64,000 nucleotides of DNA from Candidatus Aminicenantales bacterium (GTDB taxonomy: Bacteria; Acidobacteriota; Aminicenantia; Aminicenantales; Saccharicenantaceae), in assembly GCA_049513915.1 (NCBI GenBank), contig JBEKVN010000013.1:78265-142264 (forward strand), read 5' to 3'. The translations under genes and the position numbers were made by a program. Below are positions 12,717-52,245 of this stretch, one piece after another (the stretch's first letter is position 1; the number at the start of each line of letters is the position of its first letter). The notes beneath the pieces were generated by a model. It worked only from the letters and a program-made list of their open reading frames with translations. It was not told the DNA's origin and did not search any database.

Positions 12717-15437
12717 ATGTCTCATCCAACCAGTCTCCGAAAGGCCGTCGCTCCGGCGGCCACGTTGGTTATTTTCCTGAGCTTTGCGATTCTGAGCCCG
12801 GCCGCCGCCCCCGGCGCCGAAATGAAGAAGGCCGACAAGGCCAACTATGAGCTGGCCGCGCGCTTTACCTCGGCCAAGGTCGGGAAGCTCGTCTTCGACA
12901 CTTCCGTCCAGGCCCACTGGCTCGAGACGGGCGACAGGTTCTGGTACAGCTGGGAAACGAGCAAGGGACGGTCGTTTTCCATCGTCGACCCCCTGCGCGC
13001 CACGAAGAGCCCGCTCTTCGACAACGCCCGGATGGCGGCCCTGCTGACCGGGATCGTCCTGACCCCGTATGACTCCCAGCACCTGCCCTTCCGGACCGTG
13101 AAATTCATCGACAAAGACACGGCCCTCCGCCTGGAGCTCGAGGTCCAGAAGGACTCGGACGTCCGCCTCGGGGACAAGATCGTCAAGGCCGGGGACATCG
13201 AGAAGAAGCGCGAAGACGCCAAGAAGGCCAAGGAGGAGGAGGCCAAGACGCAGGAGAAGAAAGACCAAGAGAAGAAGGAGCAGGACAAGAAGGACCTGGA
13301 AAAGAAGGAGCTGGATAAAAAGGACCAGGATAAAAAAGACGCCGATAAGGACAAGGCCAAGGAGCCCGAGAAAAAAACGACCACCCTCTATTTCGAGTAT
13401 CAGCTCGCCACGGGCACGCTGACGCTCCTCCCCGACTACGAGGCGCCGCCCAAGCGGCCCAAATGGGCGTCCGTTTCCCCCGATGAAAAAATCGTCATCT
13501 TCGCCCGCGGCTTCAACCTCTTCATGATGGACGCCGAGAACTTCAAGCTGGCCCAGAAAAAAGCCGACGACGCGGCCATCAAGGAGGTCCAGCTCACGAC
13601 CGACGGCGAGGAGCACTATTCCTACGCCCGTGACCTCAATGAGGAAGATAAGAAGGAGCTCCAGAAGGACGAGAAGGACCGCAAGGATTACCGCGTCCCG
13701 GCCGGCTATATCGTCTGGTCCAAGGACTCGAAAAAGTTCGCCTGTGTCCGCGAGGACGAACGCAAGGTGGGCGACCTCTGGGTTATTAACGTCCTGGCCA
13801 ACCCGCGCCCGACGCTCGAAACCTACCGCTACGCCATGCCGGGCGAGGAAAACCAGGCCCAGCCCGAGCTCCTCGTTTTCGATATCGCGAGCAAGGGCAA
13901 GGTCAAGATCAAGGCCGACGGCTTCAAGGACCAGACCCTGGGGGTCGAGACAGCGCCCCGCCGCAACGTGGACCGCGAGAAGGACTTTCCGCCTCCGTCC
14001 CAGTGGCTGAGCGACACGTCGGACAAGCTCTATTTCGGGCGCCAGAGCCGGGACCTCCACAAGTATGACGTCTGCGTCGCCGACACGGCGACCGGCGACG
14101 TGAAGGTCTTGATCGAGGAGCGCCTGAATACCTATATCGACGTCGAGTCCCTCCGCCTTGTCAACGGCGGCAAAGAAATGGTCTGGTGGTCCGAGCGCGA
14201 CGGCTGGGGCCATTACTACCTCTATGACGGCGACGGCAAGCTCAAGTCGCAGATCACTTCCGGCGAGTTCACCTGCCAGGGGATCGAGGGCGTCGACGAG
14301 AAGACCCGCGTCCTCTACTTCAACGCCTGCGGCCGCGAGCCGAGCGAGGACCCCTACTTTTTCCACCTCTACCGGGTCAACCTGGACGGCACGGGGCTCC
14401 GGCTCCTCAACCCCGGCGACGCCAATCACGGGGCCGACGCCGACGACAACCTGCGCGTGTTCATTGACACGTTCTCGCGCGTCAACACGGCCCCGGCCTC
14501 GGAGCTGCGGGACATGATGGGGAACGTCGTCCTCAAGCTCGAAACGACGGACACGGGCGCTCTTGTCGAGGCCGGCTACAAGTTCCCCGAGCCGTTCAAG
14601 GTCAAGGCCGACGACGGCATCACCGATCTCTACGGCGTCATGTACAAACCCTTCGACTTCGACCCCGCCGTGAAGTATCCGATCATCGCTTACGTCTATC
14701 CGGGCCCCCAGACCGAGAGCGTAACCAAGACCTTCTCGCCCCGGAACGGCAACGTCGCCCTGGCCCAGCTCGGGTTCATCGTCATCGAAGTCGGCAACCG
14801 CGGCGGCAACCCCATGCGCTCGAAGTGGTACCACAACTACGGCTATGGCAACCTCCGCGACTACGGCCTGGCCGACAAGAAGCGGGCCATCGAGGAGCTG
14901 GGCATCAGGTACCCCTATATCGACGCCGACCGGGTCGGCATCTACGGCCACTCGGGCGGCGGTTTCATGACGGCCGCAGCCCTGCTCGTCTATCCCGATT
15001 TCTTCAAGGTCGGCGTGTCCTCGTCCGGAAACCACGAGAACAACATCTACAACCGCTGGTGGAGCGAAAAGCATCACGGCGTCAAGGAAGTCACGGACAA
15101 GGAAGGGAACATCAAGTTCGAGTACAGCATCGAGAAGAACTCCGAGATCGCCAAGAACCTCAAGGGCCACCTCCTGCTCACGACGGGGGACATGGACAAC
15201 AACGTCCACCCGGGGAACACCATCCGGCTGGCCAACGCCCTGATCAAGGCCAATAAGCGCTTCGACTTCTTCCTCTTCCCGGGCCAGCGCCACGGCTACG
15301 GCGACATGAACGACTACTGGTTCTGGATCCGGGCCGACTACTTCGCCAAGTACCTGCTCGGCGATTTCTCCCAGACCGTCGACCTCATCGAACTGCAGAA
15401 GGAGAAAGAGCAAACGGGGGACAAGAAGGGACGGTAG
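12717..15437 (+). CDS. dipeptidyl peptidase IV (S9B prolyl oligopeptidase family) with Lys/Glu-rich insert
   Basis: Signal peptide. DPP4-type N-terminal propeller and a C-terminal alpha/beta hydrolase with catalytic GHSGGG serine motif, later Asp and His (DNNVHP). A 60-aa K/E/D-rich low-complexity insert lies at aa 161-220. Confidence 0.85.
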   Translation: MSHPTSLRKAVAPAATLVIFLSFAILSPAAAPGAEMKKADKANYELAARFTSAKVGKLVFDTSVQAHWLETGDRFWYSWETSKGRSFSIVDPLRATKSPLFDNARMAALLTGIVLTPYDSQHLPFRTVKFIDKDTALRLELEVQKDSDVRLGDKIVKAGDIEKKREDAKKAKEEEAKTQEKKDQEKKEQDKKDLEKKELDKKDQDKKDADKDKAKEPEKKTTTLYFEYQLATGTLTLLPDYEAPPKRPKWASVSPDEKIVIFARGFNLFMMDAENFKLAQKKADDAAIKEVQLTTDGEEHYSYARDLNEEDKKELQKDEKDRKDYRVPAGYIVWSKDSKKFACVREDERKVGDLWVINVLANPRPTLETYRYAMPGEENQAQPELLVFDIASKGKVKIKADGFKDQTLGVETAPRRNVDREKDFPPPSQWLSDTSDKLYFGRQSRDLHKYDVCVADTATGDVKVLIEERLNTYIDVESLRLVNGGKEMVWWSERDGWGHYYLYDGDGKLKSQITSGEFTCQGIEGVDEKTRVLYFNACGREPSEDPYFFHLYRVNLDGTGLRLLNPGDANHGADADDNLRVFIDTFSRVNTAPASELRDMMGNVVLKLETTDTGALVEAGYKFPEPFKVKADDGITDLYGVMYKPFDFDPAVKYPIIAYVYPGPQTESVTKTFSPRNGNVALAQLGFIVIEVGNRGGNPMRSKWYHNYGYGNLRDYGLADKKRAIEELGIRYPYIDADRVGIYGHSGGGFMTAAALLVYPDFFKVGVSSSGNHENNIYNRWWSEKHHGVKEVTDKEGNIKFEYSIEKNSEIAKNLKGHLLLTTGDMDNNVHPGNTIRLANALIKANKRFDFFLFPGQRHGYGDMNDYWFWIRADYFAKYLLGDFSQTVDLIELQKEKEQTGDKKGR

Positions 15438-29137: not shown

Positions 29138-29207
29138 GAGACGCCCTCCGATTATAAATCCGCCCGCTCCCCTGGCTCAAGCGGTAATCGTCGACCGGCC
29201 TCAAGAG

Positions 29208-29400
29208 GGGTGAGGGGACAGCCGGAACGTCATGCGCGGTTTAGCCCAAGAATCGCGCTCTCCGAGGGTAGTTCCAGGGGGAACCGCCAAAACTTGTCTG
29301 AGCTCAGCGTAGCGCACGCTGAGCGAGTTGTTTTGGTGCCGAGGAGAGTGGGATTCTTGCGGCGTGAAGAACCGCGCTCTGGAGTGGAGGCTGACCCTTA
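29208..29400. repeat. family C conserved leader block (copy 1) containing a 111-bp hairpin insertion flanked by 8-bp direct repeat CGCGCTCT
   Basis: The block GCCGGAACGTCATGCGCGGTTTAGCCCAAGAATCGCGCTCT...GGAGTGGAGGC matches 48103-48170 except for the inserted 29262-29372. Direct repeats lie at 29254-29261 and 29373-29380. Inner hairpin at 29287-29336. Confidence 0.45.
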
Positions 29401-29406
29401 CCCCTC

Positions 29407-29435
29407 TTGAGGCCCGGCGGGTTTTCGGCTATAAT
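29407..29435 (+). promoter_or_regulatory. sigma70-like promoter TTGAGG-17-TATAAT upstream of EF-G paralog
   Basis: -35 TTGAGG at 29407-29412 and -10 TATAAT at 29430-29435. The same architecture sits upstream of the M16 peptidase at 48223-48251. Confidence 0.45.
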
Positions 29436-29526
29436 ATGGGCTCATTAGCTCGAATTGGATGACTCCGTCAGTCTCGAAGCGGCTCCCTTCGGAATTCCCG
29501 GACAGAGGCGAATAAGCAAAAGGCAG

Positions 29527-31623
29527 ATGTCTATGAGCACAGAAATCACCAGGATGCGGAATATCGGCATCAGCGCCCACATCGACTCCGGCAAGACAAC
29601 CTTGACGGAGCGGATTCTCTTTTACTGCAAGAAGATCCACAAGATCCACGAGGTCAAGGGCAAGGACGGCGTCGGCGCCACCATGGATTCCATGGACCTC
29701 GAGCGCGAGCGGGGCATCACCATCGCCTCGGCCACGACCAACGTCACCTGGGACGACCATTCCATCAACATCATCGACACGCCCGGCCACGTCGACTTCA
29801 CGATCGAGGTCGAGCGCTCGCTGCGCGTCCTCGACTCGGCCATCCTCGTGCTCTGCTCGGTCGGAGGCGTCCAGTCCCAGACGATCACCGTCGACCGCCA
29901 GCTCCGGCGCTACAACGTCCCCTTCATCGCCTTCGTCAACAAGCTCGACCGCGTCGGCGCCAACCCCTTCAAGGTCCGGGACCAGATCGCCGAGAAACTC
30001 GGGCACAACGCCGTCCTCATGCAGATCCCAGTCGGCCTCGAGGACGGGTTCAAAGGCATCATCGACCTCGTGGCCATGAAGACCCTATCCTTCGACGGGC
30101 CCGACGGCGAGATCGTCCGCGCCGGGGAGATCCCGGCCGGGCTCGAAGCCGAAGCCCGGAAGGCCCGCGAAGCGATGATCGACGCCGCCTCCATGTTCTC
30201 CGACGAGCTCATGGAAGCCGCGCTCGAGGGCAGGGCCACCGAGGACATGATCCATGCCGCCGTGCGCAAGGGCACCGTCGCCCGAAAGCTCATGCCCGTT
30301 TTCGTCGGGTCCGCCTTCAAAAACAAAGGAATCCAGCCTCTTCTCGACGGCGTCGTCCGCTATCTGCCCAACCCGGCCGAGGTGGAAAACCGGGCCATCG
30401 ACCTGGACGAGGAGGGCCTGGAGCACGTCCTCGCCGCCGACCCGGACGCGAAGACCGTCGCCCTGGCTTTCAAGCTCGAAGAAGGGCCATACGGGCAGCT
30501 GACCTATATCCGGATCTACCAGGGGAGCGTCCGCCGGGGCGACGAGCTCGTCAACACCCGGTCCGGCCAGAAGATCAAGGTCGGGCGGCTCGTCCGGATG
30601 CACGCGGACGACATGGCGGAAATTCAGGGCGCCGAGTGCGGCGACATCGTGGCCCTTTTCGGGATCGACTGCGCCTCGGGAGACACCTTCTGCAGCCCGG
30701 GCCTGAACCTGGCCATGACGCCCATCTTCGTCCCCGACCCGGTCATTTCCCTGGCCATCACGACCGTGGACAACGCCGCCGCCGACCGGGTGGCCAAGGC
30801 CCTTAACCGGTTCACCAAGGAAGATCCCACCTTCCGAACCCACGTCGATTCCGAGTCCAACCAGACCATCATCCAGGGCATGGGCGAGCTCCACCTCGAT
30901 ATTTACGTCGAGCGCATGAAGAGGGAATACCGGGCCGAGGTCCAGACCGGAATGCCCCAAGTCGCCTACCGCGAGGCCATCACGCACCGTGTCGAATTCG
31001 ACTACACCCATAAAAAGCAAACCGGAGGCGCCGGCCAGTACGCCCGGGTCATCGGTCACATCGAGCCGCTGCCCAAGGGGACTTACGAGTTCGTGAACGA
31101 AGTCCGGGGCGGCCGCGTCCCCCGCGAATTCATTCCGTCCTGCGACAAGGGTTTCAAGGCCGTCCTCAAAAAGGGCCCGCTCATCGGCTTCCCGGTGACC
31201 GGGATCAGGGTCGTCCTGAACGACGGCGCGTACCACCCCGTGGACTCCTCGGACATCGCCTTCCAGATGGCCGCCCAGGGCGCCTTCCGGCAGGTCTACA
31301 TGAAGGCCAAGCCGCAGATCCTCGAGCCCATCATGAAGGTTTCGGTCGAGGGGCCGAGCGAGTTCGCCGGCAACGTCTTCGCCACGATCAGCCAGAGGCG
31401 CGGCATCATCGTCAGCTCGGTCGAGGACGGGATGTTCGCCCGGGTCGACGCCGAGGTCCCGCTCAGCGAGATGTTCGGCTACTCATCGGTCCTGAGGTCG
31501 CTGACCCAGGGCAAGGCCGAATTCACCATGGAATTCCTGAAATACGGCAGGGTGCCGCCGCACGTCGCCGAGCTCCTGACGGAGCAGTACCTGGAAAAAC
31601 AGAGGAAAGCCTCCCAGAAATAA
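29527..31623 (+). CDS. elongation factor G paralog (EF-G2-like translational GTPase)
   Basis: G1 motif [18 protein letters not shown], plus EF-G domains II-V. The ORF track starts at 29455. The ATG at 29527/29533 (MSMSTEITR) fits homologous N-termini better. Confidence 0.85.
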
Positions 31624-31637
31624 TGAGAGGAGATGCC

Positions 31638-32366
31638 ATGACGCTCACGGTCAAGGAAGAACTTATCAAGCGGAGCCCCCTGAGGATCCTCGAAAAATCG
31701 ATCTCGGGCGGGCTCGGCCGCGGAAACATCGGCGTCCTCGCTTCCCGGAAAGGCGTGGGCAAGACGGCCTGCCTGGTCCACATCGCCGCGGACAAGCTCC
31801 TCCAGGGCCAGCACATCATCCACGTCTCCTACGCCAGCCGGGTCGACCACATCCTCATCTGGTACGAGGACATCTTCAAGGAGATCGGGAAGAAGCCCGG
31901 GATGAAATCCGCGCTCGAAATGTACGACGAGCTCATCCGCAACCGCGTCATCATGAACTTCAAGCAGGAAGGAACGAAGACCGAGCAGGTCCTCCGGAGC
32001 CTGGAGGCCATGATCGTCCACGGCCAGGTCGGGGCCGAAACGGTCATCGTGGACGGCCTCGATTTCGCCCAGTCCGGGCCCGAGGACCTCCGGAAGTTCA
32101 AGGAATTCGCCGGCCGCCTCGGACTCGAAGTTTGGTTCAGCGCCTCCCTCCGGGGGGACGAGCCCCTGTTCGACGATAAAGGGATCCCGTTCATGCTCCG
32201 GGACCACCTGGGCGTCATCGACGTCCTGATCTCCCTCCAGCACCACGGCGACCATGTCCATTTCACCCTGGTCAAGGACCACGACCGGCTGGCGCCCAAG
32301 GACATGCGCCTGAAGCTCGACCCGAAAACGCTCCTTATCGCCAGGGATGTCGTCCGGACGGCCTGA
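31638..32366 (+). CDS. single-domain KaiC/RecA-like P-loop ATPase
   Basis: GGLGRGNIGVLASRKGVGKTA Walker A-like segment and hydrophobic Walker B VIVDGLD. RBS GAGAGGAGA before the ATG at 31638. First in-frame ATG at 31623 overlaps the EF-G stop (TAATG). Confidence 0.5.
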   Translation: MTLTVKEELIKRSPLRILEKSISGGLGRGNIGVLASRKGVGKTACLVHIAADKLLQGQHIIHVSYASRVDHILIWYEDIFKEIGKKPGMKSALEMYDELIRNRVIMNFKQEGTKTEQVLRSLEAMIVHGQVGAETVIVDGLDFAQSGPEDLRKFKEFAGRLGLEVWFSASLRGDEPLFDDKGIPFMLRDHLGVIDVLISLQHHGDHVHFTLVKDHDRLAPKDMRLKLDPKTLLIARDVVRTA

Positions 32367-32382
32367 CCGTCCGCGAGCTTTT

Positions 32383-32411
32383 TTGACGCGCCGTTTCTTC
32401 TGTGCTATATG
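32383..32411 (+). promoter_or_regulatory. sigma70-like promoter TTGACG-17-TATATG upstream of HAD hydrolase gene
   Basis: -35 at 32383-32388 and -10 at 32406-32411. Confidence 0.35.
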
Positions 32412-32452: not shown

Positions 32453-33106
32453 TTGACTCAAAAACGCCTGGCCATCATCGACCTCGACGGCACTCTCCTC
32501 CGAAGGACGAGCTCGGAGTACTCGTTCTTCCGCTTCCTCGTCCTGCGGGGGAAAATCAGTCCGATCCGCCTGGCGTCGTTTTTTCTGACGTTCGGCCGCG
32601 ACGCCCTGAAGCTCGGGCTTCGCCAGGCGCTCGGCTGGAACGCCACGTATCTCCGGGGAGAGACGCCCGCAAGGGTCGCCGTCTGGGCCGGGAAATTCGG
32701 AAAGGCTTACCTCCGGGACGCCGTGCCCGAGGGGCTCCAGAAGAGGATCCGGGGATTCAAGGCTCAGGGCTGTCTCATCATCCTTCTCTCGGGCTCCCTG
32801 CAGGTCCTCGTCAACGAGCTCAGGGAAAAGCTCGCGGTCGACTTCGTCATCGGCCGCGAACTCGAAATCGTGGGGGGCAAACTCACCGGCCACCGTCTCG
32901 GCATTTATCCCTACGCCCGTCAGAAAGTCGAAGCCCTGTTCAAGAGGATCAAGCCCGCCGAAATCGACTGGAAGGAATCCTGGGCGCTGGCCGACCGGCT
33001 GTCGGATCTGCCCGTCCTGGAACTCGTCGGCCATCCCGTGGCCGTCCACCCCACCGCGGGGCTCCGCCGGCACGCCCTTCAGCACGGCTGGGAAATCATC
33101 GGCTGA
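32453..33106 (+). CDS. HAD-superfamily subfamily IB hydrolase (phosphoserine phosphatase-like)
   Basis: DxDGT motif (IIDLDGTLL) and a downstream HAD motif. Apparent TTG start. Confidence 0.65.
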   Translation: MTQKRLAIIDLDGTLLRRTSSEYSFFRFLVLRGKISPIRLASFFLTFGRDALKLGLRQALGWNATYLRGETPARVAVWAGKFGKAYLRDAVPEGLQKRIRGFKAQGCLIILLSGSLQVLVNELREKLAVDFVIGRELEIVGGKLTGHRLGIYPYARQKVEALFKRIKPAEIDWKESWALADRLSDLPVLELVGHPVAVHPTAGLRRHALQHGWEIIG

Positions 33107-41226: not shown

Positions 41227-42729
41227 ATGATGAGAAAGAAACTGTTCGTCCGGCCCGCCCTCGCGCTGGCCGTCCTCGTCCTGCTCAACCTGGCCCTGGC
41301 GGCTCAGTCCTTCGAGGGCGTCAAGAAGCAGGTCCGGACCCATGTGCTGCCGAACGGCATGAAATTCATCGTCCTCGAGCGGCACGACGTCCCGGTGGCA
41401 TCGTTCCATGTCTACGCGGACGTCGGCAGCGCCAACGAATCCTACGGCATTACGGGCATTTCCCATATCCTCGAGCACATGGCTTTCAAGGGGACCACCA
41501 CGATCGGGACGAAGGACTACGCCGCGGAATCGAAGGTCCTCGAAGAGCTGGACAATGTCTACGACCAGATGAAGCGAGAAGAGGCCAAGCCCATCGCGGA
41601 CAAGGCGAAAGCGGCCGAACTCAAAGCCAAGTTCGACGACCTCGAAAAGAAAGCCAAGGACTACGTTGTCAACAACGAGTATTTCGACATGATGATGCGG
41701 CAGGGCGACGCCGGCGTCAATGCCTACACGTCCTCCGACGCCACCCAGTACATCAACTACCTTCCCAGCAACCGCCTGGAATTCTGGATGGCCATGACCT
41801 CGGACCGGTTCCTGAACCCCGTCTTCCGGGAATTCTACAAGGAGCGGGACGTGATCATGGAGGAGCGGCGCCTCGGGGTTGAAACCCAGCCCACGGGCAA
41901 GCTCATGGAGGATTTCGTGGCCGTCGCCTTCAAGGCCCACCCGTACCACCACGAAGTCGTCGGGCACATGTCCGACCTCCAGGCCATCCGGCGGCAGGAC
42001 GTCGAGGACTATTTCAAGAAGTTCTACAGCCCAAGCAATCTAACCGTTGGGATCGTGGGCGACGTTTCGGCGGACGAAGTCTTTCGGCTGGCCGACCTCT
42101 ACTTCGATCGCATCCCGAGCGGGCCCAAGCCCGAGCCCGTCCGGACCAGGGAGCCCGAGCAGTGGGGCGAGAGGCGCGTCATCGTCTCCGCCAAATCCCA
42201 GCCGTTCCTGTTCATCGGTTTCCATGTCCCGGACGCGAAAAGCAAGGACGCCCCGGCCCTCGAGGCCCTCGTCAACATCGTCGGACGGGGCCGGTCCTCC
42301 CGGCTCTACCAGGCCCTGGTCAAGGACAAGAAACTGGCGATCCAGACCAGCTGCATGAACGGGTTCCCCGGGGACAAGTTCCCGAACCTCGTCGTCTTCT
42401 ACGCGATTTCGGCCCAGGGAAAGACCTCGGCCGAATGCCAGGCGGCCATCGAGGAGGAGATCGAGAAGATCAAGAAGGAATCGGTGACGGAAGACGAGCT
42501 GACCAAGTTCAAGCGGAGCACCATCAAGGGGCTCCTCGGCCAGATGAAATCCAACCCCCGGATGGCCGCGATGCTAACCTACGCCGACGTGGTCCTGGGC
42601 GGCTATGAAAAGGCGTTCGACCAGATCGAAGACTACAAAGCTATCACCGCCGAAGACGTCAAACGGGTCGCCAACACGTACCTCGTGAAAACCAACCGGA
42701 CCGTCGGCGAGATCATTCCCGAGAAGTAA
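41227..42729 (+). CDS. M16 family zinc peptidase (pitrilysin-like), catalytic subunit
   Basis: Signal peptide. Inverted zinc motif HILEHMAFKG (HxxEH) and a downstream E. Confidence 0.85.
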   Translation: MMRKKLFVRPALALAVLVLLNLALAAQSFEGVKKQVRTHVLPNGMKFIVLERHDVPVASFHVYADVGSANESYGITGISHILEHMAFKGTTTIGTKDYAAESKVLEELDNVYDQMKREEAKPIADKAKAAELKAKFDDLEKKAKDYVVNNEYFDMMMRQGDAGVNAYTSSDATQYINYLPSNRLEFWMAMTSDRFLNPVFREFYKERDVIMEERRLGVETQPTGKLMEDFVAVAFKAHPYHHEVVGHMSDLQAIRRQDVEDYFKKFYSPSNLTVGIVGDVSADEVFRLADLYFDRIPSGPKPEPVRTREPEQWGERRVIVSAKSQPFLFIGFHVPDAKSKDAPALEALVNIVGRGRSSRLYQALVKDKKLAIQTSCMNGFPGDKFPNLVVFYAISAQGKTSAECQAAIEEEIEKIKKESVTEDELTKFKRSTIKGLLGQMKSNPRMAAMLTYADVVLGGYEKAFDQIEDYKAITAEDVKRVANTYLVKTNRTVGEIIPEK

Positions 42730-48170: not shown

Positions 48171-48222
48171 ATCCCCGAGGCCCTTTCAAAGACGCACAGT
48201 CACGAGACCCGTCCGACCTTTC

Positions 48223-48251
48223 TTGAGCCCGGCGCGAGCGCTGTGTATAAT
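48223..48251 (+). promoter_or_regulatory. sigma70-like promoter TTGAGC-17-TATAAT upstream of M16 peptidase
   Basis: -35 at 48223-48228 and -10 at 48246-48251. Paralogous to the promoter at 29407-29435. Confidence 0.45.
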
Positions 48252-52053: not shown

Positions 52054-52061
52054 TTTTTTTT

Positions 52062-52245
52062 ACATCAGGAGAGGCTCGATCCTAACCGATCGGACCCGGC
52101 AACCTGGGGCGGACACCCGAGGTGCTCACTCGCCAGCGGCGAGGATGTGGTCGCGAAAGCGAACGCGGCAACCAAGTGTCCAACGGCCGACAAACCCGCC
52201 TTCCTGATGATAGAGAGGTGGGTTTTTTTGCGGCCGCGCATTGAC
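52062..52245 (+). promoter_or_regulatory. SAM riboswitch (SAM-I clan: SAM-I/SAM-IV-like) in metK 5-prime leader
   Basis: P1 strands CATCAGGAG (52064-52072) and CTTCCTGATG (52200-52209). Conserved core AGGAGAGGC...GGACCCGGCAACC resembles SAM-I ...AGAGAGGCGGAGGGA...GCCCGGCAACC. Followed by a hairpin plus T7 tract. metK lies directly downstream. Confidence 0.55.
52191..52228 (+). terminator. putative riboswitch expression-platform terminator (ACCCGCC...GGTGGGT + TTTTTTT)
   Basis: 7-bp stem with one G-U around a 16-nt loop, overlapping the P1 3-prime strand, followed by a seven-T run at 52222-52228. Confidence 0.3.

What the first reader, a model, noticed from the sequence alone, without database searches (positions are those of the whole stretch)
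29527..32366. EF-G paralog translationally coupled to a single-domain KaiC/RecA-like ATPase
A full-length EF-G-type GTPase (G1-G4 motifs, domains II-V) lies away from any str-operon context. Its stop overlaps the first ATG (TAATG) of a 240-aa P-loop protein whose N-terminus (GGLGRGNIGVLASRKGVGKTACLVHIA...VIVDGLD) resembles one KaiC/RadA/DnaB-type RecA-fold domain. EF-G2 paralogs are known in several phyla. Pairing one with a KaiC-like ATPase is, to my knowledge, not standard. It could mark a regulatory or stress-specific translation module. The cluster is driven by the family C promoter.
Basis: partly seen in the sequence, partly recalled or inferred. Interest (0 to 1): 0.55.

Follow-up and report, generated by a model that had tools for sequence, protein, structure and literature searches.

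The report
Mitochondrial-type EF-G with RecA-like partner
In this Aminicenantes bacterium the mitochondrial-type translocation factor EF-G (spdEFG1) shares a two-gene operon with an uncharacterised small RecA/KaiC-fold nucleotide-binding protein, and nearly every relative examined keeps this pairing, which points to an undescribed partner of a core translation factor.

Summary
A full-length EF-G (29533-31623, +) is followed 14 nt later by a 242-aa P-loop protein (31638-32366, +). A sigma-70-like promoter precedes the pair and an intrinsic-terminator-like hairpin sits at the second stop codon.

Two details need correcting:
- The EF-G is not an EF-G2-type spare copy. It carries the KDG switch-I insertion that defines spdEFG1, and its best solved relative is mitochondrial EF-G1.
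- The TAATG overlap is coincidental. The conserved start is the next ATG, behind a strong Shine-Dalgarno site.

EF-G lies directly upstream in 80/80 species genomes and in 74/74 metagenome loci with enough upstream sequence. Seven of ten divergent representatives, down to about 29% identity, also have it. The flanking genes vary, and every well-called partner EF-G has the KDG-type insertion.

I found no report of this pairing. The most likely reading is a dedicated nucleotide-dependent partner of spdEFG1. The mechanism is inferred, not shown.

The parts
29406..29435 (+). Sigma-70-like promoter CTTGAGG-N17-TATAAT for the two-gene operon
   Evidence: Scores 10/12 in the consensus scan. The -35 CTTGAG and -10 TATAAT are invariant in six aligned orthologous Aminicenantes loci. 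The motif CTTGA-N17-20-TATAAT occurs 3 times in the window against 0 expected.
29436..29532 (+). 5' leader with conserved sequence blocks (CCGGC, CCCGAA, GACAGGCGTGA, AAAGG)
   Evidence: Conserved blocks appear in the 6- and 12-sequence alignments. There is no supported consensus structure (3 pairs, no covariation) and no Rfam match.
29533..31623 (+). EF-G of the spdEFG1 (mitochondrial EF-G1-like) subfamily, 696 aa. An alternative in-frame ATG lies at 29527.
   Evidence: Five EF-G domains are present, and TIGR00484 scores 972 bits. The best PDB relative is mitochondrial EF-G1 at 796 bits, against 666 for E. coli EF-G. The switch-I insertion [13 protein letters not shown] is the KDG indel that defines spdEFG1. 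The start follows the orthologs.
31625..31632 (+). Shine-Dalgarno GAGAGGAG in the 14-nt spacer between the two genes
   Evidence: Read directly from the sequence. An equivalent GGAG/AGGAG lies in a 13-30 nt spacer in most of the 80 orthologous loci.
31638..32366 (+). 242-aa single-domain RecA-superfamily P-loop protein. Walker A is G39-V-G-K42-T43 and Walker B is D139. The catalytic Glu position reads HVSYASR. There is a conserved K213 and a C-terminal LDPxTLL motif.
32355..32385 (+). Intrinsic-terminator-like hairpin CGGACGG-CCTGA-CCGTCCG followed by a T-run. The TGA stop lies in the loop.
   Evidence: Found by the terminator scan and read from the sequence.

Best explanation
This is a housekeeping bicistronic operon. 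Gene 1 is spdEFG1, the translocation-specialised, mitochondrial-type EF-G. Gene 2 is a previously undescribed single-domain RecA/KaiC/DnaB-fold nucleotide-binding protein that has been inherited together with spdEFG1 as a fixed unit.

**Proposed mechanism**
- The two proteins are made from one mRNA in a set ratio. A 14-nt spacer with a strong Shine-Dalgarno site separates the genes.
- The small protein binds ATP through an intact P-loop and Walker B.
- It acts as a nucleotide-dependent partner of EF-G, either free or on the ribosome. It could tune the availability or turnover of the translocase to the cell's nucleotide or energy state.
- In this clade the catalytic glutamate is lost. Here it would work as a slow or non-hydrolysing switch or adaptor rather than a motor. 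The divergent EF-G-linked branch keeps a KaiC-like Glu-Glu and probably hydrolyses ATP.

**Shown**
- The identity of both proteins.
- The operon anatomy.
- The fold and the motif status.
- The near-universal synteny.

**Inferred**
- Physical or functional interaction with EF-G.
- ATP binding.
- The switch role.

I put about 0.45 on 'dedicated functional partner of spdEFG1 in translation'. I put only about 0.2 on the specific energy-sensing switch mechanism.
For: **Synteny**
- EF-G lies immediately upstream on the same strand in 80/80 GTDB species-representative loci, labelled Aminicenantes/Acidobacteriota, Spirochaetia and Desulfaltia.
- The same holds in 74/74 metagenome loci of a divergent branch that have room upstream.
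- It holds for 7 of 10 separately probed divergent representatives at 29-38% identity: P0171, P0299 (Syntrophobacteraceae), P0189, P0164, P0236, P0207 and P0154.
- Spacers are typically 13-30 nt with a Shine-Dalgarno site.
- Flanking genes are not conserved: 69 clusters among 119 downstream genes and 63 among 98 upstream genes. Selection therefore acts on the pair itself.

**Specificity for spdEFG1**
- All 77 well-called of 78 full-length partner EF-Gs carry the G[KR]DG switch-I insertion.

**Co-inheritance**
- EF-G and ATPase distance matrices correlate with r=0.85 (0.82 and 0.94 within branches; Mantel p=0.001).

**Nucleotide binding**
- Walker A GxGKT and Walker B D139-G140 are conserved in 93-100% of EF-G-linked members.

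**Expression**
- Both genes are among the most codon-biased ORFs in the window: Nc 33.1 and 31.2 across 37 ORFs.
- A strong conserved promoter and a terminator bracket exactly these two genes.

**Ligand-sensing hint**
- Some lineages fuse a SLOG (nucleotide/ligand-binding) domain to the ATPase, and those genes still sit directly after EF-G.
Against: - No direct evidence of interaction was obtained. No EF-G-ATPase fusion appeared among the 150 best family representatives. The one apparent fusion, P0218, is a frameshifted artefact.
- No complex prediction could be run.
- Three family members are not next to EF-G: P0136 and P0265 sit beside a Bax1-I membrane-protein gene, and P0268 stands alone. 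The protein can therefore function away from the EF-G gene.
- Well-studied spdEFG1/mtEFG1 systems (Borrelia, mitochondria) are not known to need such a partner (my own knowledge, not tested here).
- The distance correlation is also expected from shared phylogeny alone.
- I could not measure what fraction of spdEFG1 genes has the partner.
Confidence: 0.45

Rival explanations
1. Hitch-hiker. The RecA-like protein has a job unrelated to translation, such as recombination or repair mediation like RadA/Rad51 paralogs, or another nucleic-acid transaction. It merely shares the strong constitutive EF-G promoter.
For: The closest folds are DNA helicases and recombinase paralogs. In long variants the fused SLOG domain also resembles DprA, a RecA loader. 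Some family members live away from EF-G.
Against: Promoter-sharing by accident does not usually survive in 154/154 scorable loci with unrelated flanks, down to about 29% identity and across several phyla. No DNA-repair genes recur nearby. The protein lacks the extra DNA-binding or zinc-finger/Lon domains of RadA and the N-terminal domain of DnaB (a single domain of 242 aa).
Confidence: 0.25
2. Hexameric RNA motor. The protein assembles like DnaB, Rho or Elp456 into a ring. The ring engages mRNA, tRNA or rRNA and assists or monitors translocation on structured or stalled messages.
Against: The window's clade has lost the catalytic Glu in 0/36 members, which fits a motor poorly. Oligomeric state and RNA-binding loops were not testable here.
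Confidence: 0.12
3. This is a spare EF-G2-type paralog plus a KaiC-like regulator, forming a stress- or condition-specific translation module.
For: The gene lies outside a str operon. spdEFG-type factors are duplicates within the EF-G family.
Against: EF-G2 models are failed by a wide margin. The KDG insertion and the similarity to mtEFG1 place it in spdEFG1, which the literature treats as the working translocase where EFG I is absent. Codon bias is among the strongest in the window. The promoter is of the consensus housekeeping type.
Confidence: 0.1
4. A KaiC-type timing or signalling protein (autokinase) that happens to be encoded next to EF-G.
For: There are weak hits to the archaeal KaiC-domain models TIGR03881/03880. 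Some relatives carry precomputed PF06745 hits. The divergent branch has a KaiC-like EE.
Against: It is a single domain, not the tandem CI-CII arrangement. KaiC models score 20-23 bits against cutoffs of about 248. No kaiA/kaiB-like neighbours were seen. The EE pair is absent in this clade.
Confidence: 0.03

Closest known systems
spdEFG1 / mitochondrial EF-G1 subfamily of EF-G (Margus et al. 2011, PMC3150367; Atkinson 2015, PMC4342817)
   Same: It has the five-domain EF-G architecture. The KDG insertion in switch I is present. Its highest similarity among solved structures is to mitochondrial EF-G1. It is located outside the str operon.
   Different: It is found here in Aminicenantes (Acidobacteriota), a phylum outside the original spirochaete/planctomycete/deltaproteobacterial range. 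Neither paper mentions a conserved downstream RecA-like gene in the passages retrieved by term search.
Single-domain KaiC-like / RadB-like RecA-superfamily ATPases (PH0284, SSO2452, FlaH, RadB; COG0467)
   Different: No curated KaiC model is passed. There are family-specific invariants H62, Y76, R103, W166 and a C-terminal LDPxTLL. The catalytic Glu is lost in this clade. The fixed partner gene is a translation factor.
DnaB / T7 gp4 / T4 gp41 / Twinkle helicase C-terminal domains (SF4)
   Different: There is no N-terminal helicase or primase domain. The catalytic Glu of the 'S-x-E' motif is replaced. The context is not replicative.
Ribosome-acting ATPases that work alongside the translocase: fungal eEF3 and bacterial ABCF proteins such as EttA (my own knowledge)
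   Same: This is a functional analogy only. An ATP-binding protein modulates elongation or couples it to the ATP/ADP state.
   Different: Those proteins are ABC-type twin-cassette ATPases. They are not RecA-fold and are not encoded in an operon with EF-G/eEF2. No ribosome binding has been shown here.
FusB-type EF-G-binding proteins (my own knowledge)
   Same: A small accessory protein whose target is EF-G.
   Different: FusB proteins are zinc-binding, non-ATPase resistance factors. They are acquired horizontally and are not co-inherited with fusA.
DprA-RecA pairing (a SLOG/Rossmann domain protein working with a RecA-fold ATPase)
   Different: Here the two domains sit in one chain and follow EF-G. 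The window protein lacks the SLOG domain.

Membership tests
EF-G (TIGR00484 equivalog) | Whole-protein score above the curated cutoff, with five domains (G, II, III, IV, V) | tested here: met
   Scores 972 bits against a cutoff of 659.4. Pfam finds GTP_EFTU, GTP_EFTU_D2/EF-G_D2, EFG_III, EFG_IV and EFG_C.
spdEFG1 subfamily | Three-residue 'KDG' insertion in switch I | tested here: met
   The window EF-G reads [14 protein letters not shown]. The diagnostic is stated in PMC3150367. It is present in all 77 well-called partner EF-Gs.
spdEFG1 subfamily | Groups with mitochondrial EF-G1 rather than EFG I | tested here: met
   phmmer against PDB gives mtEF-G1 796 bits, E. coli EF-G 666, T. thermophilus EF-G 645 and mtEF-G2 382. 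This is a similarity ranking, not a phylogenetic tree.
spdEFG1 subfamily | Co-occurs with spdEFG2 in genomes lacking EFG I | not testable with these tools
   Only 64 kb of this genome is available, and it holds one EF-G.
EFG II / EF-G2 | Score above the NCBIfam EF-G2 cutoffs | tested here: not met
   NF009377 scores 392.5 against 890. NF058620 scores 439 against 1000.
RecA-superfamily (ASCE P-loop) fold | RecA-like core with Walker A after beta1 and a Walker B Asp | tested here: met
   [not shown]
KaiC | Curated KaiC-domain model passed | tested here: not met
   TIGR03881 scores 23.4 bits against 247.8. TIGR03880 scores 20.5 against 249.5. Pfam gave no PF06745 hit for the window protein. Some distant relatives have precomputed PF06745 hits.
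KaiC | Tandem CI-CII duplication and a catalytic Glu-Glu after beta2 | tested here: not met
   It is a single 242-aa domain. Positions 65-67 read Y-A-S, and Glu is present in 0/36 members of this clade. In the divergent EF-G-linked branch 28/37 members have at least one Glu at these positions, mostly as a KaiC-like Glu-Glu.
DnaB-type replicative helicase | N-terminal domain plus a DnaB_C domain with catalytic Glu | tested here: not met
   There is no N-terminal domain. The window protein has no DnaB_C Pfam hit. The gp41 'SME' Glu aligns to a non-acidic residue. Only the fold is shared.
Pfam AAA_25 (PF13481) | Gathering score of 27 bits | tested here: not met
   The window protein scores 20.8 bits. 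Several homologs carry the precomputed hit.
Anti-phage defence systems (PADLOC) | Significant match to a defence-system protein model | tested here: not met
   The only match is typeIV_DinG at E=0.0027 and 14 bits. Two other family members gave nothing.

The most novel reading that the evidence does not exclude
The RecA-fold protein is a true additional elongation-cycle factor of 'spd-type' bacteria. It would be an ATP-binding subunit that physically docks on spdEFG1 or on the EF-G-bound ribosome, gating translocation or EF-G release according to the adenylate state. That would make it a RecA-fold counterpart of eEF3/EttA, and the first ATP-dependent partner of a bacterial EF-G. It could also bear on how the mitochondrial-type EF-G1/EF-G2 division of labour arose.
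Probability: 0.2. Interest if true: 0.85.

Novelty: new variant of a known kind. Interest (0 to 1): 0.62.

Why it matters
EF-G is one of the best-studied proteins in biology, and it is thought to work on the ribosome without a dedicated protein partner. Here a highly expressed-looking RecA/KaiC-fold P-loop protein has stayed directly behind the mitochondrial-type EF-G gene in every scorable locus. This holds across Acidobacteriota (Aminicenantes and others), spirochaete-labelled MAGs and Desulfobacterota, while everything around the pair changed.

If the two proteins work together, three things follow:
- It would reveal an ATP-linked layer of control, or an extra step, in elongation in a large and mostly uncultured part of the bacterial tree.
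- It would give a function to a family of several thousand 'hypothetical proteins'.
- It would offer a new angle on the subfunctionalised spdEFG1/spdEFG2 system from which mitochondrial EF-G1 and EF-G2 derive.

The question is directly testable with recombinant proteins.

Tried and rejected
**Family and database searches**
- Curated family assignment of the small protein gave only sub-threshold hits in Pfam, NCBIfam and PADLOC.
- A single-sequence PDB search gave only marginal hits: a spurious PPR repeat match and gp41 at 0.008. The profile search was needed.

**Locus scans**
- The search for related loci with the full 61-sequence alignment failed for lack of a conserved block. It was repeated with a 12-sequence sub-alignment.

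**Fusion evidence**
- A 'Rosetta-stone' fusion was sought. P0218 looked like EFG_IV plus AAA_25, but its sequence is frameshift garbage, so I rejected it.
- I wondered whether the 238-aa gene after the ATPase in L086 might be a second copy or a split SLOG domain. It has no Pfam hit and no evident similarity to either.

**Upstream RNA**
- No known RNA family lies upstream of EF-G. There were no Rfam hits at gathering threshold or at E<=1.
- No consensus structure was found in the conserved leader.
- The 230-nt hairpin is not conserved in orthologous loci, so it is not part of the module.

**Structure tools**
- The afdb50 fold library was unavailable.
- No EF-G+ATPase complex prediction was run.

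**Literature**
- Searches for spdEFG1/2, EF-G plus KaiC-like, RecA-like ATPase plus gene neighbourhood, Aminicenantes plus EF-G, and COG0467 plus elongation factor returned no report of the pairing.

**Not obtainable**
- The reverse conditional (what fraction of spdEFG1 genes carries the partner) could not be measured.
- The presence of EFG I or spdEFG2 in the same genome could not be checked either.
Full report
**1. What is at the coordinates**

The ORF table shows a long + strand ORF ending at 31623 and a second + strand ORF at 31623/31638-32366.

- The first ORF has all five EF-G domains in Pfam. It scores 972 bits on the EF-G equivalog TIGR00484, whose cutoff is 659.
- The second has only sub-threshold P-loop hits: AAA_25 at 20.8 bits against 27, AAA_22, and archaeal KaiC-domain models at 20-23 bits against about 248.
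- The neighbours are an EamA transporter gene on the opposite strand and a HAD-IB hydrolase gene downstream. There are no ribosomal-protein or tuf genes nearby.
- tblastn finds no second EF-G in the 64 kb.
- Homolog names place the window in Candidatus Aminicenantes (Acidobacteriota).

**2. Gene boundaries and operon anatomy**

- *EF-G start.* The closest orthologous loci lack the ATG at 29527 and start at the equivalent of 29533. The modal ortholog length is 696 aa.
- *Second-gene start.* TAATG is physically present, but close homologs are uniformly 242 aa. In the 80 orthologous loci the EF-G stop is followed by a 13-30 nt spacer (mode 14) with GGAG/AGGAG and then ATG. Most loci have no ATG at the stop. 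The real start is therefore 31638, 5 nt after GAGAGGAG.
- *Promoter.* A sigma-70-like promoter (CTTGAGG-N17-TATAAT, 29406-29435) lies upstream. It is invariant in aligned orthologous loci.
- *Terminator.* A GC hairpin plus T-run encloses the stop codon of the second gene.
- The transcription unit is therefore exactly these two genes.
- Both genes are among the most codon-biased of 37 window ORFs, with Nc 33.1 and 31.2. This suggests high expression.

**3. Which EF-G**

- It fails both EF-G2 models by a wide margin.
- Among solved structures, mitochondrial EF-G1 is the best match at 796 bits. E. coli EF-G scores 666 and mitochondrial EF-G2 scores 382.
- Its switch I reads [13 protein letters not shown]. 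That is the three-residue KDG insertion which Margus et al. give as the diagnostic of spdEFG1.
- spdEFG1 and spdEFG2 are described as a subfunctionalised pair for translocation and recycling. The pair replaces EFG I in spirochaetes, planctomycetes and deltaproteobacteria, and it gave rise to mitochondrial EF-G1 and EF-G2.
- The gene is thus most likely a working translocase, not a spare copy. Whether this genome also has EFG I or spdEFG2 could not be tested.

**4. What the small protein is**

- *Family size.* A search of 1.8 billion cluster representatives found 632 clusters at E<=1e-3. Nearly all are 225-245 aa. The word-indexed search found more than 2600 proteins, all named 'hypothetical' or generically 'KaiC/GvpD/RAD55 family RecA-like ATPase'.
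- *Sequence profile.* A 61-sequence profile hits the T4 gp41 DnaB-like helicase at 1.8e-8. Twinkle, RadA, DnaB and KaiC follow at weaker E-values.
- *Conserved residues.* Walker A G39-x-G41-K42-T43, Walker B D139-G140, H62, S64, Y76, R103, W166, K213 and a C-terminal L227-D-P-x-T-x-L233.
- *Catalytic Glu.* The position of the catalytic Glu of this superfamily (gp41 'S-M-E', KaiC 'E-E') reads Y-A-S in the window protein. It carries no Glu in 0/36 members of its clade. In the divergent EF-G-linked branch 28/37 members have at least one Glu at these positions, mostly within an HxS[LT]EE-type motif.
- The window protein probably binds nucleotide but hydrolyses it poorly.

**5. Is the pairing conserved?**

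| Sample | Result |
|---|---|
| GTDB species representatives (551 stretches encode a relative; best 80 fetched) | EF-G directly upstream, same strand, in 80/80 |
| Metagenome scan seeded with a divergent branch (about 30-35% identical to the window protein), 80 loci | EF-G directly upstream in all 74 with room upstream |
| Ten further representatives probed one by one | EF-G upstream in 7 |

- The 80 GTDB loci are labelled Aminicenantes/Acidobacteria (about 41), Spirochaet- (15) and Desulfaltia (1). The rest carry placeholder names.
- The seven positive representatives include Syntrophobacteraceae and the 430-445-aa variants.
- The three negative representatives are P0136 and P0265, which sit next to a Bax1-I membrane-protein gene, and P0268, which stands alone.
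- All 77 well-called partner EF-Gs carry the G[KR]DG insertion.
- Flanking genes are almost never shared: 69 clusters among 119 downstream genes and 63 among 98 upstream genes.
- EF-G and partner distance matrices correlate at r=0.85. This is consistent with inheritance as a unit, although shared phylogeny alone would also produce it.
- Other names in the divergent branch include Acidobacteria, Polarisedimenticolia and Eisenbacteria. MAG labels are taken at face value.

**6. Extra clue from domain fusion**

- In some lineages the protein carries an extra C-terminal domain of about 190 aa and still follows EF-G by 5-14 nt.
- That domain models confidently (pLDDT 91.6).
- SLOG domains typically bind nucleotide-derived ligands. 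This fits a sensing or regulatory role, but it is only a hint.

**7. Interpretation**

- The best-supported statement is that spdEFG1 and this RecA-fold protein form a conserved, co-expressed functional module.
- I propose that the small protein is a nucleotide-dependent partner of spdEFG1. It would be a switch or adaptor in this clade and an active ATPase in the Glu-Glu-bearing branch. It would act on EF-G or on the EF-G-bound ribosome.
- This rests on synteny logic and motif status. No interaction was shown.
- The rival readings are each scored in the rivals section:
  - an unrelated hitch-hiker on a strong promoter;
  - a ring-shaped RNA motor;
  - a stress-specific paralog module;
  - a KaiC-type clock protein.
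- The defence-system reading is rejected.

**8. Comparison with what is known, and novelty**

- The EF-G is a member of a known subfamily, here in a phylum (Acidobacteriota) outside the original 'spd' range.
- The small protein belongs to the RecA/DnaB/KaiC superfamily, but it fails every curated family test applied (see the membership table).
- Full-text searches returned no paper describing an EF-G-RecA-like pairing. Term searches within the two key EF-G family papers retrieved no mention of such a neighbour.
- I therefore rate it a new variant of a known kind: a known factor with a previously unrecognised, tightly linked partner family. It is of moderate-to-high interest because it is cheaply testable and touches a core process.

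**9. Limits**

- I could not run a complex prediction.
- I could not determine the other EF-G genes of these genomes.
- I could not measure how many spdEFG1 genes lack the partner.
- Taxonomic breadth rests on MAG labels.

Noticed in passing
window 29192-29419: A roughly 230-nt nested inverted repeat lies between the divergent EamA and EF-G promoters. Its arms are 29192-29216/29395-29419 and 29247-29263/29343-29359, with a central hairpin at 29302-29324. It folds at -150 kcal/mol (z=-10.9) on the + strand. The 3' arm overlaps the EF-G -35 box. It has no Rfam match, is absent from orthologous loci and from all 175 fetched loci, and occurs once in the window. It may be a palindromic insertion or an inverted duplication of the promoter region.
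   Followed up: partly
window 29151-29181 (-), 29406-29435 (+), 48222-48251 (+): The promoter-like motif CTTGAG-N17-20-TATAAT occurs three times against 0 expected from shuffles. Two copies face away from each other on either side of the hairpin.
   Followed up: partly
window 29436-29532: The EF-G 5' leader holds sequence blocks conserved across 12 Aminicenantes loci: TCGA..TTCGATTTCGG, CCGGC, CCCGAAC and CCGACAGGCGTGA. No consensus secondary structure or covariation was found. It may be a protein-binding or regulatory leader.
   Followed up: partly
window 52057-52185 (+): A SAM-I/IV riboswitch aptamer (RF01725) scores 42.2 bits against a gathering score of 41.1. It is the only Rfam gathering-level hit in the window.
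   Followed up: no
[not shown]
   Followed up: yes
L081:780-2218; L082:5181-6693; L083:3021-4533: Two of the three family members not linked to EF-G sit next to a Bax1-I (BI-1/YccA-like) membrane-protein gene, in two different gene orders. L082 looks Treponema-like, since a TP_0983-family gene lies nearby.
   Followed up: no
L086:6839-7555 (also L087): In a Syntrophobacteraceae-type locus the EF-G-ATPase pair is followed by a 238-aa helical protein with no Pfam hit.
   Followed up: partly
window 32453-33106 (+): A HAD-IB family hydrolase gene follows the operon after the terminator. It is kept downstream only in the closest Aminicenantes loci (L001-L014, L017; further away in L018) and not in more distant ones.
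   Followed up: partly
L004, L005 (EF-G split into two tblastn pieces); L076 (N-run); P0218: In a few MAG contigs EF-G appears frameshifted or interrupted. One database 'protein' (P0218) is a garbled EF-G/ATPase read-through. These look like assembly or sequencing errors, not real fusions.
   Followed up: partly
window 12717-15437 (+) and 41227-42729 (+): Two other ORFs share the very strong codon bias of the EF-G operon (Nc 32.9 each). They may also be highly expressed genes. They were not identified.
   Followed up: no
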